Origin: an uncultured archaeon
GTDB lineage: Archaea > Asgardarchaeota > Thorarchaeia > Thorarchaeales > Thorarchaeaceae
NCBI GenBank assembly: GCA_964610875.1
Contig: CAZSWP010000013.1
Span: forward strand, 18,872-82,871
Direction: 5' to 3'
DNA: 64,000 nt
Shown here piece after piece: positions 14,851 to 36,290 of this stretch. The notes under the pieces are model-generated. The model did no database searches and was not told the DNA's origin. It was given only the letters and a program-made list of their open reading frames with translations. A program made the translations under genes and the position numbers. Position 1 is the stretch's first letter. Each line of letters starts with the position of its first letter.

Positions 14851-16020
14851 TTAGATACATCGGTGAATTACTTCAGGTCCAGCTTCCTCAAACTCTTTCC
14901 GAGATACCCACATTTACCACGCAGCAACGGAAATCGGTGCCGCTTTTTGGAACGTTTTCAGCGAAGCTAGAATGCTTCCGCCAATCCAGACAGAGTATTG
15001 TCTCTCGGGTGGAGCGATGATGCGTACCTCGATGTTCTCTGGGACTAGTTCGGTGATCTCCTTATGGAGTCGTTCCTTGAGTCCTGGGAACATGGTTGAA
15101 CCGCCTGATAGTACAATGTTGGCGTACAGGTCACGTCGCAAGTCTACATCGCAAGCCTTGATCGACTCGACAATGTGTTCATCCAGTGGGATTGAGTCTA
15201 GACCTATTGCGCTTGGGTTGAAGAACAGCTCGGGTGCTTGGAACCTCTCTGCACCAACAGTGATTACTTCACCGTCTGGTAGCATGTAGGGTTTGTCAAC
15301 ACCAGCCTTGTCGGCCACTGTCCTCTCGCGCTCTGGGTCAAGAGCAACGTAACAGAGTTTCTCTTTTACATCACGGACAATCTCTTTCTCTGCACCGCTC
15401 ACGAATGAGTAACCTCTCTGTCTGAGAAGTCTGCGCAGGTACTCGGTGATGTCACGACCAGCAAGGTCGATTCGTTTGATTGCGTGGTTGATTGAGAAAC
15501 CTTCGTACACAGGTACAATGTGTGTGACACCGTCACCAGAGTCGATGACGAGACCTGTGGTTCTTCCGGATGCGTATAGTGATAGCACAGCCTGTGTTGC
15601 GACATAGACGGCAGGTATGCCGAAGTTGTCGAACATGACAGATGCCATGCGTTCACGATTCTCTCTTGGGTTGTATGGTGCTTCAGTGAGAAGCACGGGG
15701 TTCTCGCTGGGATCAACTTTCAAGTCGTTGTAGAAAGTGTAACTCCAGATTTTTTCGATTGCGTCCCAGTCGTCAATTACACCGTGTGTAATTGGGTAGA
15801 CGAGTCTGAGCACACCACGGAGGTTGATTGCCTCTTCACCAATGTAGTAATCCCTTGTGTAGTGATCGACGTCCGTCATAATGGACTCGTATCGTGGATA
15901 TCCAATTAGTGTAGGCCATACACTTCGTGGCTGATCTTCACCAGCGTAACCGTTCTTACTCAGGCCAGTACCATTGTCAATGACAATTGGTTTACTGCCC
16001 ATGTAATCTTCCTCAGCCAT
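14851..16020 (-). CDS. Asgard actin (Lokiactin-type), 379 aa after removal of a 30-nt intron; exons 16020-14945 and 14914-14851
   Basis: [32 protein letters not shown] and [12 protein letters not shown] motifs; the conserved tail [20 protein letters not shown] resumes in frame after the insertion. Confidence 0.95.
14915..14944 (-). other. Candidate 30-nt BHB-type intron in actin mRNA
   Basis: Contains an in-frame TAA; internal stem GCGGCA/UGCUGC; central helix CCAA/GUGG flanked by 3-nt bulges AAA and UAA; removal gives FQK-MWV. Confidence 0.8.
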
Positions 16021-16083
16021 GGTTTATCGGTCCTCGTTTTTTTTTTCTCGTTGTGCGCACTTTAGAAGAGTTCAGACTCTTAG

Positions 16084-16095
16084 TATAAAGCTTCC
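16084..16095 (-). promoter_or_regulatory. Putative BRE/TATA of actin
   Basis: GGAAGC-TTTATA about 65 nt upstream of the ATG. Confidence 0.45.
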
Positions 16096-16524
16096 AAAAC
16101 TCTGTGCTACGTCATTCGAGAGCTGCTTCCTTAATAACTATTATCAGGTTGTCAAACACATATTTGATATATATATATTATGTATTTTGGGTGGAAGAGG
16201 GCGTTAGAGTGCAGAGTGGGCGGAAAATGGCGTTTCGGGCAGCTTAGCTGCCTTTCCGTATTATGTGTATACATACTCAGACAATAGCTGGTCAGCTTTG
16301 TTATTTTGACTACAAAATATATATATGTCATATAGTTCTTAGCAAGCAGCAAGAGGTAATATTTCCCATATGAGTAAAACCCCGTACTGCACAGAAATTC
16401 TAGAGATAGTGGTATGATGCAAAATCTGCCACTTCCAGTCCCTAAACGATAGATAATTCAAGTTGAAAAATGGGTTTTGTACATAGAAATTCATCTTCGG
16501 GAAAGAAAAAACAGGTGAAACAGA

Positions 16525-33257: not shown

Positions 33258-33489
33258 TTTCTTGGGATATTGTCATTGAAAAGATTATCTCCGGTCTATT
33301 GAATAGATTAGCTCAGTTTCCCCAGTTTTCCTATATTTCGGGGATTACATCTGTTGCTACTTTCTCAAGAAAGACAATTTGATTCTGACCGAAAAAAGGA
33401 TAATAGAAAATCAATTCATTGATTCCAATTGAAGAATATCTCTCCAAAGATATGACAAAAACCGAAGATTGATTGTCGATTTTTTGCAT

Positions 33490-34136
33490 TTAAGGCGCTT
33501 CTGCTGCTTATAGCAATGGCACATATGCATACATAGCAGAACATAGATCTCCACAAGATTTACTGGAATTAGGAAATTATCTTCGGGCATTGGATGGAGT
33601 TGAGCTGGTTGAGATTTATCCAATATTAGGTAGGAGGGATGGAAAGATGGACTTGAAAAATCTGCATCTCCGTGTGCTTAAGCAGCTCTGGGATAATCCA
33701 AGGATGCCTGTAGTGGAAGTTGCTGAAAGATCTGGTCTTACAACAAAGCGGGTTCGAAGTCTCATTTCAGAGATGATTGATTCTAGGGTTTTTTTGGGCT
33801 TCAATAGATGCGAAATTAAGCGCTGACACTGATATCTCATTTCTGCTAAGAATACGATACGATGAATCAAAGACCACGTATGATGAAGTTTCTACATGGA
33901 TCAGTAATAACTTTCCTCTCTATGTGTGGGAGACCTACATTCTGGCATCCGAACCTATGATGTTTGTGCTATTCAATGTAGAGTCATTGAATCAGATGAA
34001 TGACATCTCCAGAAACATCAGACAACAGGACTTCATTCATAGTTCGAAGACACTTGTGAGTGCCTATCATTCTCTTTTCAATGGTCTTTCTACAAGATAT
34101 TTGATTGATTTGATAAAGTCCATTGAATCAGAATAA
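33490..34136 (+). pseudogene. Degraded Lrp/AsnC-type regulator
   Basis: HTH L..NPRMP..EVAE.SG...K.V; +1 frameshift in a T7 run near 33789; 5' part interrupted by stops. Confidence 0.65.
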
Positions 34137-34223
34137 TTTGGGTTTGCTTCTTACGAAAGATTGGAAATTTAATTTTCAATGTACATGTAATGTGCATCGG
34201 ATTTATGTATAGAATAGGGTTCT

Positions 34224-36290
34224 ATGGATATTGCTGGTGAAAACATGTTTGAAATCTCCAAGGCTATGAAAATCAAACTACCTAGTGAACTCCCTCCACA
34301 ACCGAAGTTTGACCCTCAGTATAGGCGTGCACCTAGTAGAGGGTTCAATCTAAGCAAGGGTGAGACCATAACTGCTCTCAAAAATGCTCTCCGTTATGTT
34401 CCTGAGGGACTACATGAAAAGATTGTTCCTGAGTTTCTGAATGAATTGATGACTCGTGGACGCATCTATGGATACAGGTATAGACCAACTGGTGCAATTC
34501 GTGCAAAGCCAGTTGATGAGTACAACGGGACTCTTGAAGCAAGAGCAATGCAATTGATGATGGACAACAATGTTAGCTTTGAAATTGCTCTCTATCCGTA
34601 TGAACTGGTGACTTATGGTGAGTCTGGACAGGTCTGCCAGAATTGGATGCAGTTCCAACTGATTAAGAAATACCTCGAGATGATGACAAAGGAACAGACA
34701 CTCGTTGTCAGTTCAGGACATCCCGTAGGTCTCTTCCCTTCAAAGAGGAACGCCCCAAGGGTAATATCTACTAACGGTCTCATGGTCGGAATGTTCGATA
34801 CTCCTGAAGGATTTCATAAAGCATCCGCGCTAGGTGTCGCTAATTACGGACAGGTATTAGCAGCTCGTTAATACCCCGCAAAGATGACAGCTGGTGGCTG
34901 GATGTATATTGGTCCACAAGGGATTGTACATGGAACCTATATTACATTACTAAATGCTGGAAGACTATACCTTGGACTCCCACAGGACAAAGATTTGGCA
35001 GGTCATCTGTTTGTCACTTCAGGCCTTGGAGGGATGAGTGGGGCCCAAGCAAAAGCCATTGAGATAGCCGGCGGTGTTGGAGTCATTGCTGAAGTGGATA
35101 AGAGTCGTATCGAAACAAGAAGTCAACAGGGTTGGTTAGGTAAGAACTCAGATGACTTGGATGAAATATTTGATTGGGTGCAAGAATACAAAGAGAGTAA
35201 GACCCCTATTTCAATTGGTTACTATGGGAATATTGTTGATTTGTGGGAATATGTTTTGAAGAATAAAGTTGAAGTTGAACTTGCCTCGGATCAGACCTCT
35301 TGTCATGATGCGTATGGGGGTGGTTATACTCCCCAAGGTTTGTCATTCGAAGAGGGACGAGACCTTCTTTGTGAGGATAGGAATAAATTTACCAGACTCG
35401 TTGATGCATCGCTGAAACAGCAATTTGAACTCATAAGAAGCATGCATGAACGTGGTACTTTCTTCTGGGATTATGGTAATAGTTTCATGAAAGCAGTATT
35501 TGATGCAGGAGTCAAAGAGATAGCAAAGAATGGACGTGACACCAGTAATGGGTTCATTTTCCCATCATATGTTGAAGATATCATGGGCCCCATTTGTTTT
35601 GATTATGGTTATGGCCCCTTCAGATGGGTCTGTCTGAGTGGAAAGCATGATGATTTGATAAGTACCGACAAGATTGCTATGTCATGTATCGACCCAAATC
35701 GGCGAGGACAAGACCGTGACAATTACATTTGGATTCGTGATGCTGAAAAGAATGATCTCGTCGTTGGTTCTCAGGCTAGGATTCTTTATGCAGATGCCAG
35801 TGGGCGTGTGAAGATTGCTCTCGAGTTCAATAAAATGGTTAGAGAAGACAAGATTGGTCCTATTATGTTAGGAAGAGACCATCATGACACCGGTGGTACA
35901 GACTCCCCATTCAGAGAAACTGCAAATATCTACGATGGAAGCAATGTGATGAGTGATATGGCTCATCAGTGTTGGGCTGGGAACGCAGCTAGAGGAATGT
36001 CATTGTGCGTCCTGTCAAATGGTGGCGGTGTGGGAACTGGTAAAGCTATCAATGGCGGGTTTGGTCTTGTGTTGGATGGGTCTGAACGGGTGGACAACAT
36101 CATCAAGTCTGCTTTAAACTGGGATGTAATGGTTGGAGTATCTCGGAGGGCATGGGCTAGAAACGACCATGCAATAGAAACAGCTATAGAATGGAATAGA
36201 GAGATAGGAAACAATGGACAGATTACGGTTCCTTACCTACCGAAAGAAGGGTTGGTTGAGGACCTTGTAGAAGAAAAGTTCAAGGAGTAG
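34224..36290 (+). CDS. hutU: Urocanate hydratase (long type), 678 aa after removal of a 30-nt intron; exons 34224-34851 and 34882-36290
   Basis: Two in-frame ORFs join to give the conserved NYGQ-MTAGGWMYIGPQGIVHGT; GLGGMSGAQ, SDQTSCH and GRDHHD motifs. Confidence 0.93.
34852..34881 (+). other. Candidate 30-nt BHB-type intron in hutU mRNA
   Basis: In-frame TAA; stem GGUAUUAG/UUAAUACC; helix ACGG/CCGC with 3-nt bulges ACA and AAA; removal gives YGQ-MTA. Confidence 0.8.

What the first reader, a model, noticed from the sequence alone, without database searches (positions are those of the whole stretch)
14851..34883. A shared class of sequence-unrelated mRNA micro-introns, possibly genome-wide
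Two unrelated genes 20 kb apart carry inserts with the same architecture. Both are 30 nt, contain a TAA stop and an internal hairpin, form a relaxed BHB with one helix mismatch, and sit in a strongly conserved motif directly before a Met codon, yet their sequences are dissimilar. Two in 64 kb suggests many per genome, which gene callers would record as split or truncated genes. Inference: tRNA-type splicing has been extended to mRNAs in a lineage close to eukaryotes.
Basis: inference. Interest (0 to 1): 0.9.

Follow-up and report, generated by a model that had tools for sequence, protein, structure and literature searches.

The report
tRNA-type micro-introns in Thorarchaeota mRNAs
The only actin gene and the urocanase gene of this Asgard (Thorarchaeota) archaeon are each broken by a 30-base insert shaped like an archaeal tRNA intron, so they very probably need mRNA cutting and rejoining by the tRNA-splicing enzymes; such introns are real but rare here (three found), not genome-wide.

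Summary
Actin (minus strand, intron 14915-14944) and urocanase hutU (plus strand, intron 34852-34881) each carry a 30-nt insert with an in-frame TAA inside a conserved motif.

Each insert folds with its exon into a bulge-helix-bulge (BHB): a 4-bp helix, two 3-nt bulges and a stacked hairpin. Cutting after the second bulge base restores FQK|MW and YGQ|MT exactly. Related genera carry the same inserts at the same sites with compensatory changes. Their central helices are perfect where this genome has one mismatch.

I found more cases. This genome has a 33-nt intron in peroxiredoxin. Relatives have 30- and 31-nt introns in EF-1alpha and a 32-nt intron at a second hutU site. All 16 instances at 6 sites obey the same cut rule, against 0.1-1.2% of shuffled inserts.

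The genome encodes two EndA paralogs, consistent with a crenarchaeal-type (alpha-beta)2 enzyme. The alpha subunit has the specificity-broadening loop. RtcB ligase is present, and the tRNA genes are heavily interrupted by introns of about 30-34 nt.

"Many per genome" is not supported. A homology scan against 75% of a relative's genome found only these three introns among about 2,000 comparable genes.

No RNA evidence could be obtained. The kind is known from cbf5 in Crenarchaeota. This scan had already noted EF-1alpha BHB introns in other Asgard genomes.

The parts
14945..16020 (-). actin exon 1 (Met to the first two bases, AA, of the Lys codon in ...TFQK)
   Evidence: Pfam Actin 1.4e-122. The exon end follows from the BHB cut rule and from the intronless orthologs, which read TFQKMWVS.
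14915..14944 (-). actin BHB micro-intron, 30 nt
   Evidence: Coordinates checked. The same-site intron occurs in 6 of 25 same-family genomes, including this one. Shuffled inserts give 14/5000.
14947..14950 (-). actin central-helix 5' strand CCAA (exon 1). It pairs with GTGG at 14917-14920, giving 3 of 4 pairs.
   Evidence: Relatives have CCAG/CTGG, and G022 has TCAA/TTGA, a double compensatory change.
14944..14946 (-). actin 5' bulge AAA; the cut falls after its 2nd base
14921..14943 (-). actin intron hairpin (h'), stacked directly on the central helix; loop ATTTC
   Evidence: strand folding. The six closing pairs are 100% paired in 6 genomes.
14917..14920 (-). actin central-helix 3' strand GTGG (intron)
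14914..14916 (-). actin 3' bulge TAA, which is also the in-frame stop of the unspliced reading; the cut falls after its 2nd base
   Evidence: RNAalifold leaves 7 nt unpaired here, so the 3' side is relaxed.
14851..14914 (-). actin exon 2 (third base of the Lys codon, then [20 protein letters not shown] and the stop)
   Evidence: It matches the C-termini of intronless orthologs.
34224..34851 (+). urocanase (hutU) exon 1; it ends with the C of the Gln codon in ...NYGQ
   Evidence: Pfam Urocanase_N 2.4e-42. Orthologs read YGQMTAGGW without interruption.
34852..34881 (+). hutU BHB micro-intron, 30 nt, with an internal TAA
   Evidence: The same-site intron in G001 and G016 has a perfect ACGG/CCGT helix and 3 compensatory stem pairs. 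Shuffled inserts give 11/5000.
34846..34849 (+). hutU central-helix 5' strand ACGG (exon 1). It pairs with CCGC at 34876-34879, with one A.C mismatch.
34850..34852 (+). hutU 5' bulge ACA; the cut falls after its 2nd base
34853..34875 (+). hutU intron hairpin: 9-bp stem and AGCTC loop
   Evidence: strand folding z = -2.27. RNAalifold result.
34876..34882 (+). hutU central-helix 3' strand CCGC plus 3' bulge AAA; the cut falls after the 2nd bulge base
34882..36290 (+). hutU exon 2 (AG completes the Gln codon, then MTAGGW... to the stop)
   Evidence: Pfam Urocanase 1.9e-79 and Urocanase_C 9.8e-78. The spliced reading is open for 678 aa.

Best explanation
Both inserts are bulge-helix-bulge (BHB) introns of the archaeal tRNA type, sitting inside pre-mRNAs.

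Proposed mechanism:
1. After transcription, the last bases of exon 1 pair with the 3' end of the intron and form a 4-bp helix.
2. That helix is flanked by two 3-nt bulges on opposite strands.
3. The rest of the intron forms a hairpin stacked on the helix.
4. The splicing endonuclease EndA cuts after the second base of each bulge. The genome's two paralogs indicate an (alpha-beta)2 enzyme whose alpha subunit carries the crenarchaeal specificity loop.
5. RtcB joins the exons, and the roughly 30-nt intron is released, probably as a circle.
6. Splicing recreates the Lys codon in actin (AA|A) and the Gln codon in hutU (C|AG).

Unspliced transcripts stop at the in-frame stop codon that every in-frame member carries.

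Shown here: the structure, the exact agreement between the structural cut rule and the junction expected from homologs, covariation, the enzymes, and a patchy distribution that implies repeated gain and/or precise loss.

Inferred: cleavage and ligation in vivo, the fate of the intron, and any regulatory role.

The class is rare. I found three introns in this genome (actin, hutU and peroxiredoxin), and a few different ones in related genera.
For: 1. Gene identity and exact insert limits come from orthologs.

2. A strict BHB (4-bp helix, two 3-nt bulges, cut after the 2nd bulge base) falls on the frame-restoring junction in all cases.
- That is 16 instances at 6 independent sites in 4 genes: actin x6, hutU site 1 x3, hutU site 2 x2, EF-1alpha site B x3, EF-1alpha site A x1 and peroxiredoxin x1.
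- Fifteen instances have 3-4 central pairs. G018 hutU site 2 has only 2.
- Shuffled inserts achieve this in 7-59 of 5000 trials.
- Two sites hold frame-shifting introns of 31 and 32 nt.

3. Covariation in the actin alignment: 98.3% of cells are paired and 4 pairs changed on both sides. Shuffles reach the observed values 0/500 (cells paired, covariation score) or 1/500 (pairs with double changes), and slid controls are 20-47% paired.
- G022 has TCAA/TTGA where the others have CCAG/CTGG.
- RNAalifold recovers the central helix, the 5' bulge and the hairpin without being told.
- The hutU stem has 3 compensatory pairs between genera.

4. Only one actin match was found in this genome, and only one EF-1alpha match in G008, G022 and G014. 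Those single genes are the interrupted ones, so the inserts must be removed for the proteins to be made.

5. Enzymes are present.
- There are two EndA paralogs.
- The alpha paralog matches the Aeropyrum pernix (alpha-beta)2 alpha subunit at 1.7e-44, without a gap across the Crenarchaea-specific loop.
- The loop residues K44 and R46 are kept as K-P-K. Their role is described in PMC3241643.
- RtcB matches at 9.7e-177.

6. tRNA genes of the same genome are heavily interrupted by introns of about 30-34 nt. This agrees with preprint 10.64898/2026.10.13.758758.
Against: - There is no RNA-level evidence. The only metatranscriptome contigs that could be laid came from intronless relatives at 93-95% identity.
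- In this genome both central helices have one mismatch.
- The outer exon-exon helix is weak. For actin, RNAalifold leaves 7 nt unpaired on the 3' side. For hutU it prefers two extra pairs that eat into the 3' bulge. The motifs are therefore relaxed rather than canonical.
- One relative, G018 at hutU site 2, has only 2 of 4 central pairs.
Confidence: 0.85

Rival explanations
1. Programmed translational bypassing (ribosome hopping), as in phage T4 gene 60 or the mitochondrial 'byps'. The insert stays in the mRNA and the ribosome takes off before it and lands after it.
For: The inserts are short, contain a hairpin and a stop codon, and are flanked by 2-nt direct repeats in this genome (AA...AA in actin, AG...AG in hutU). 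That would allow partial re-pairing of a peptidyl-tRNA.
Against: - The covarying helix pairs exon 1 with the 3' end of the insert, with exact 3-nt bulges. Hopping gives no reason for that.
- No stop codon directly follows a take-off codon. It is the 10th insert codon in actin and the 6th in hutU.
- In G012 actin only one register restores the conserved Lys, and it is the BHB register.
- The same architecture holds for the 31- and 32-nt members.
- The genome's tRNA introns have the same size and shape.
Confidence: 0.04
2. Inactivating insertions: a small hairpin element has disrupted the genes, which are now pseudogenes or truncated proteins, and nothing removes the insert.
For: The insert is patchy among close relatives. 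G023 has the actin insert and its sister G008 does not. That is what a recent insertion would look like. No RNA evidence of removal exists.
Against: - Actin and EF-1alpha gave a single match in the affected genomes and are otherwise intact. Both exons match orthologs at 90-96% amino-acid identity with no other lesion.
- The actin insert persists at one site in six genera, with compensatory changes that keep the structure.
- The precise structural cut rule restores the frame at all six sites.
Confidence: 0.05
3. True gene splitting with stop and restart: hutU is made as two polypeptides (215 aa and 468 aa from the ATG after the insert), and actin is made as a C-terminally truncated protein.
For: In both genes an ATG follows the insert directly. 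Gene callers recorded the pieces this way.
Against: - The Met is the conserved Met of the motifs FQKMW and YGQMTAG in uninterrupted orthologs, so it is not a new start.
- The other four sites have no ATG at the junction.
- A separate 20-aa actin tail is implausible.
- The split lies inside a conserved motif, not between domains.
Confidence: 0.03
4. Assembly or sequencing artefact in a metagenome-assembled genome.
For: The genome is a 124-contig MAG with 5.8% estimated contamination.
Against: The same inserts at the same sites, with diverged sequences, occur in independent assemblies of other genera.
Confidence: 0.01

Closest known systems
BHB intron in the cbf5 (pseudouridine synthase) pre-mRNA of Crenarchaeota (Watanabe et al. 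2002; Yokobori et al. 2009, PMC2738675)
   Same: Both are short introns inside a protein-coding region with the tRNA-type bulge-helix-bulge motif. Both occur in organisms with an (alpha-beta)2 EndA. Both show lineage-specific presence and absence, and both cause gene callers to mispredict the gene.
   Different: - cbf5 is a single gene with one old, conserved site, and its splicing has been shown experimentally.
- Here at least four unrelated genes (actin, hutU, peroxiredoxin, EF-1alpha) and six sites are involved, in Thorarchaeota.
- Presence varies within genera, and some introns at different sites resemble each other.
- Splicing has not been shown at the RNA level.
- According to PMC7714728, cbf5 was the only coding-region case reported up to 2020.
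Non-canonical BHB/BHL introns of archaeal pre-tRNAs, including the heavily interrupted tRNA genes of some Asgard families (preprint 10.64898/2026.10.13.758758)
   Same: The motif, the cut rule, the size range (about 30-34 nt in this genome) and the inferred enzymes (EndA alpha-beta, RtcB) are the same. Gains are also repeated in both.
   Different: The host RNA is an mRNA. The exon half of the motif must therefore be supplied by coding sequence, and splicing has to compete with translation. The preprint does not mention mRNA introns.
BHB processing site in the 5' UTR of Haloferax volcanii HVO_1309 mRNA (PMC7714728)
   Same: An mRNA is a substrate of the archaeal splicing endonuclease.
   Different: That site lies in an untranslated leader and does not interrupt a reading frame.
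Translational bypassing elements (phage T4 gene 60; mitochondrial byps)
   Same: They are short, stop-containing inserts with hairpins inside essential coding regions.
   Different: They need matched take-off and landing codons and act at the ribosome. Here the conserved and covarying feature is an exon-intron helix with two 3-nt bulges.

Membership tests
Archaeal BHB (splicing-endonuclease) intron | A 4-bp central helix flanked by two 3-nt bulges on opposite strands | tested here: met
   Actin has CCAA/GTGG with bulges AAA and TAA. hutU has ACGG/CCGC with bulges ACA and AAA. That is 3 of 4 pairs in this genome and 4 of 4 in relatives.
Archaeal BHB (splicing-endonuclease) intron | Symmetric cuts inside the bulges (after the 2nd bulge base) give the functional mature RNA | tested here: met
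   The rule, applied without adjustment, restores the ortholog-defined junction in 16 of 16 instances at 6 sites, including the 31- and 32-nt frame-shifting members.
Archaeal BHB (splicing-endonuclease) intron | Flanking helices h (exon-exon) and h' (intron) | tested here: inconclusive
   The h' helix is strong, at 6-9 bp, and stacks directly. The outer h helix is weak or displaced in actin and hutU, although it is a clear 7-bp helix in the peroxiredoxin intron. The motif is therefore relaxed (HBh'-like) in the two window cases.
Archaeal BHB (splicing-endonuclease) intron | Base pairs are maintained by compensatory change | tested here: met
   The count of structure pairs gave 4 pairs with double changes. 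Shuffles reached the observed values 0/500 (cells paired, covariation score) or 1/500 (double changes).
Archaeal BHB (splicing-endonuclease) intron | The host encodes a splicing endonuclease able to cut relaxed or non-canonical motifs, and an RNA ligase | tested here: met
   There are two EndA paralogs. The alpha paralog is closest to the A. pernix (alpha-beta)2 alpha subunit and has the CSL loop with both basic residues. RtcB is present.
Archaeal BHB (splicing-endonuclease) intron | Excision and exon ligation are observed in RNA | tested here: inconclusive
   Read laying on four metatranscriptomes returned only contigs of intronless relatives.
Translational bypass element (gene 60 type) | Identical take-off and landing codons, with a stop codon directly after take-off | tested here: not met
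   No stop follows the putative take-off codon. In G012 actin the flanks are AAT...TGA, which offers no matching landing codon.
Spliceosomal or group I/II intron | GT-AG or ribozyme core; length above about 20 nt with conserved boundary motifs, or hundreds of nt | tested here: not met
   The inserts are 30-33 nt. GT...AG appears only in one register of the hutU insert and in no actin, peroxiredoxin or EF-1alpha insert. They are too short for a ribozyme.
Intein | An in-frame protein insert with splicing blocks and no stop codon | tested here: not met
   The insert is 10-11 codons long and contains a stop codon.

The most novel reading that the evidence does not exclude
The roughly 30-nt BHB introns of Thorarchaeota are a mobile population. 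They move between sites, and possibly between tRNA genes and mRNAs, by inserting wherever coding sequence can supply the exon half of the motif. They are also lost precisely.

On this reading, an Asgard lineage is running a protein-enzyme-dependent cycle of intron gain and loss in essential genes such as actin and EF-1alpha.

Hints seen here:
- Two hutU sites share the exon word TTACGGA and have similar hairpins.
- The actin and EF-1alpha introns share the GATTTCC hairpin tip and similar exon contexts, TTCCAGAA and TTCATAA.
- Sister genomes differ in presence of the actin intron.
Probability: 0.3. Interest if true: 0.85.

Novelty: new member of a known kind. Interest (0 to 1): 0.72.

Why it matters
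In the papers I could search, splicing-endonuclease introns inside archaeal coding regions are documented for one gene only, cbf5 in Crenarchaeota.

- **Wider reach of the tRNA-splicing machinery.** Introns of this kind in actin, EF-1alpha, urocanase and peroxiredoxin of an Asgard lineage show that the machinery probably services mRNAs in the closest prokaryotic relatives of eukaryotes.
- **Intron turnover.** These introns are being gained and lost on short evolutionary timescales.
- **A testable system.** The case can be checked directly: RT-PCR across a 30-nt gap, and EndA cleavage in vitro. It bears on how a cell with coupled transcription and translation copes with interrupted essential genes.
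- **Annotation.** The actin gene is recorded as a 368-aa truncated protein and hutU as two genes. Pipelines for Asgard genomes need a BHB-aware step.
- **A limit on the claim.** The phenomenon involves a handful of genes per genome, not a genome-wide layer.

Tried and rejected
1. **RNA evidence.** The look-up of sequencing runs with the actin region gave only runs holding 4-12% of the sampled words.
- Laying X1-X4 on window 14500-34499 gave contigs at 93-95% identity over actin only.
- Their loose ends read ...AAG ATG TGG..., which is the intronless relatives' form.
- This says nothing about splicing in this organism.

2. **BHB descriptor plus ORF-merging scan of the whole genome.**
- There were 784,234 raw motif hits.
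- About 32,000 of them merge ORFs.
- There was no excess of correct-register cuts over cuts shifted by 1-2 nt at any hairpin-energy threshold.
- The method is too noisy at gene boundaries to find rare introns. It does rule out hundreds per genome.

3. **Junction-peptide search for introns shared by G000 and G008.** It gave 3 candidates against 2 and 1 in the shifted controls. Those I inspected are gene boundaries.

4. **In-frame insertions without stop codons.**
- I examined 41 in G000 and 53 in G008.
- The weak BHB matches among them lie in variable or repeat regions, at about the chance rate.

5. **blastn-short of the four intron sequences against both genomes.** Only chance-level short matches appeared, so there are no further close copies.

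6. **ATTTC-loop hairpins.** They are not enriched genome-wide relative to the reverse complement, 306 against 294.

7. **Mixed alignment of hutU and EF-1alpha introns with MAFFT.** It introduced gaps and was not used.

8. **Remaining genome download.** About 25% of G008 was therefore not compared.

9. **A mistaken call.** One search used a wrong reference and returned an error.

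
Full report
**What is there**

The window belongs to a 3.75-Mb, 124-contig genome (G000, contig C13). Its close relatives are labelled Candidatus Thorarchaeota in public records.

On the minus strand, 16020..14851 encodes an actin (Pfam Actin 1.4e-122). Its frame ends in ...[16 protein letters not shown]. The same frame then continues with [20 protein letters not shown], which is the normal actin C-terminus.

On the plus strand, 34224..36290 encodes urocanase (hutU). The N-terminal domain and the Rossmann and C-terminal domains lie in two in-frame ORFs. 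They are separated inside the conserved YGQMTAGGW motif by VLAAR*YPAK.

Each insert is 30 nt, contains a TAA and is mostly a hairpin.

**The inserts are BHB introns by structure**

In an archaeal BHB, a 4-bp helix is flanked by two 3-nt bulges, each lying 3' of one helix strand. EndA cuts after the second bulge base. This rests on established knowledge and is described in the papers read.

- Actin reads ...GUU CCAA AA|A [GCGGCACCGAUUUCCGUUGCUGC] GUGG UA|A AUGUGG...
- hutU reads ...AUU ACGG AC|A [GGUAUUAGCAGCUCGUUAAUACC] CCGC AA|A GAUGAC...

These coordinates were verified. The cuts remove exactly 30 nt, at 14915-14944 and 34852-34881. They rebuild AAA (Lys) and CAG (Gln), giving TFQK-MWVSR and NYGQ-MTAGGW. 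The spliced reading frames are open for 379 and 678 aa. Intact Thorarchaeota actins are 379 aa long.

**Comparative evidence**

I searched 40 related genomes.

*Actin.* The actin insert sits at the same site in 6 of the 25 genomes of the family (this one included), in six genera. The others read TFQKMWVS without interruption.
- Four of the five relatives that carry the insert have a perfect CCAG/CUGG helix.
- G022 has UCAA/UUGA, a change on both sides of two pairs.
- On the six-genome alignment the BHB structure is 98.3% paired, and four pairs changed on both sides.
- Shuffles reach the observed values 0/500 (cells paired, covariation score) or 1/500 (double changes). Slid controls are 20-47% paired.
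- RNAalifold, given no structure, recovers the central helix, the 3-nt 5' bulge and the hairpin.

*hutU.* The insert recurs in G001 and G016 with a perfect ACGG/CCGU helix. Three stem pairs differ from this genome in a compensatory way.

*Other sites.*
- A second hutU site (VTYGE|SGQV) carries a 32-nt, frame-shifting insert in G018 and G002.
- This genome has a 33-nt intron in peroxiredoxin, between FTPVCT and TEF (contig C10 8468-8500). It has a textbook AUGC/GCAU helix and a 7-bp outer exon helix. It was not found in the 23 other genomes that have the gene.
- EF-1alpha is interrupted at HKDFI|KNM by 30 nt in G008, G022 and G014.
- EF-1alpha is also interrupted at PSW|AWAF by 31 nt in G014.

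For all 16 instances at the six sites, the unadjusted cut rule gives the junction expected from orthologs. Fifteen instances have 3 or 4 central pairs. G018 has only 2. Randomly shuffled inserts do this in 0.1-1.2% of trials.

**The machinery**

- The genome has two EndA paralogs.
- The 191-aa paralog aligns without gaps to the catalytic alpha subunit of the Aeropyrum pernix (alpha-beta)2 enzyme (1.7e-44).
- That alignment includes the Crenarchaea-specific loop. K44 and R46 of the loop, which confer broad substrate range (PMC3241643), appear here as K-P-K.
- The 207-aa paralog matches solved EndA chains more weakly. Read by eye, it has no His at the catalytic position. I infer that it is a beta-like structural subunit.
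- RtcB is present.
- ARAGORN finds only 35 tRNAs. Twenty of them have introns, many of 30-34 nt, and several have over-long 'mature' parts.
- This fits the heavily interrupted Asgard tRNA genes described in a 2026 preprint, which does not mention mRNA introns.

**How common is it?**

I fetched 2.41 Mb, about 75%, of the relative G008. I then ran tblastn of its ORFs against this genome, and the reverse.
- About 1,990 G008 ORFs had a match.
- Exactly three micro-inserts with conserved flanks appeared in this genome: actin, hutU and peroxiredoxin.
- One appeared in G008: EF-1alpha.
- Frame-shifting cases would have been seen. Positive controls with the 31- and 32-nt introns are detected as paired HSPs. 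None was found in the 10-120 nt range.
- In-frame inserts without stops show no convincing BHB.
- Candidates shared by both genomes do not exceed the controls.
- A BHB plus ORF-merging scan shows no excess over shifted cuts.

The class is therefore real but rare, on the order of a few per genome. Two cases in one 64-kb window is not representative. Sensitivity limits remain: exons shorter than about 40 aa, genes without a G008 homolog, and the uncompared quarter of G008.

**Dynamics**

On an actin gene tree, the presence of the intron needs at least three changes on well-supported branches. Sister pairs differ: G023 has it and G008 does not, and G019 has it and G004 does not. The peroxiredoxin intron was found only in this genome.

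Some introns at different sites resemble each other.
- The actin intron and both EF-1alpha introns end their hairpins in GATTTCC and sit in similar exon contexts.
- The two hutU sites share TTACGGA and have similar stems.

This suggests transposition to sites that can supply the exon half of the motif, but I did not test it statistically.

**Alternatives**

- *Ribosome hopping* does not explain an exon-intron helix that covaries, and the stop codons are not next to a take-off codon.
- *Pseudogenisation* is unlikely. Each affected genome gave only one match for actin or EF-1alpha, and those genes are otherwise intact.
- *Stop and restart* is contradicted because the Met belongs to the conserved motif and is absent at the other sites.
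- *Assembly error* is excluded by independent assemblies.

The missing piece is RNA. The metatranscriptome contigs that could be laid came from intronless relatives.

**Comparison with what is known**

The closest known case is the cbf5 pre-mRNA intron of Crenarchaeota. A 2020 paper still called it the only coding-region BHB intron (PMC2738675).

The present introns are new members of that kind, in new genes and in an Asgard lineage, with several sites and rapid turnover. Earlier notes of this scan report BHB introns in EF-1alpha of other Asgard genomes. One of those notes gives 31-nt and 30-nt EF-1alpha introns at coordinates that fit the G014 locus I reached independently. Notes on this genome also pointed to the peroxiredoxin case, which my homology scan recovered on its own.

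Noticed in passing
G000 contig C39:1548-1742 (outside the window); G008 contig C4 about 131449-131634: A second, different class of insert of about 187 nt splits otherwise collinear genes. The copies in the two genomes share sequence, for example a 3' end ...CAATGAACGGTA and an internal CCTGGGAGG motif. They shift the frame. First-stage notes on this genome describe inserts of similar size, about 188 nt.
   Followed up: partly
L051 (G018) about 1880-1911 and L052 (G002) minus strand; possibly also G006 (L049/L053): There is a second intron site in hutU (VTYGE|SGQV) with a 32-nt frame-shifting BHB insert. Its exon context TTACGGA is the same word as at the first hutU site. The G018 copy keeps only 2 of 4 central pairs.
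   Followed up: partly
L241 (G014 contig C45) about 1975-2077: Besides its 31-nt and 30-nt introns, the EF-1alpha gene of G014 shows a third break. tblastn pieces overlap in the query by 18 aa and lie 101 nt apart in the DNA, which suggests an insert of about 155 nt. I did not examine it.
   Followed up: no
G000 contig C5 about 44099 and 44248 (minus strand): Two in-frame stop codons align with conserved Trp residues of a G008 homolog within one gene, with well-conserved flanks. This could be a pseudogene, a sequencing error or recoding. I did not examine it.
   Followed up: no
G000 whole genome (ARAGORN): Only 35 tRNA genes are recognised, and 20 of them have introns. Several have a 'mature' part far longer than 76 nt, for example tRNA-Glu at 110 nt and tRNA-Val at 107 nt. 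This implies additional unrecognised introns.
   Followed up: partly
window 14851-36290 compared with G008 C10 and G019 C3: Actin and hutU are syntenic neighbours about 15-20 kb apart in several genera. The closeness of the two introns therefore reflects conserved gene order. Whether two of the three introns lying within 20 kb is more than chance (roughly 3%) is open.
   Followed up: no
G000 C28 about 9323-9406 and 47699-47780; G008 C10 about 6838: An HdrA-like gene is fused to a downstream MvhD-like part in G008 but split into two adjacent genes in G000, about 62-70 nt apart, with the second starting at Met. This looks like a gene fusion or split, not an intron.
   Followed up: no
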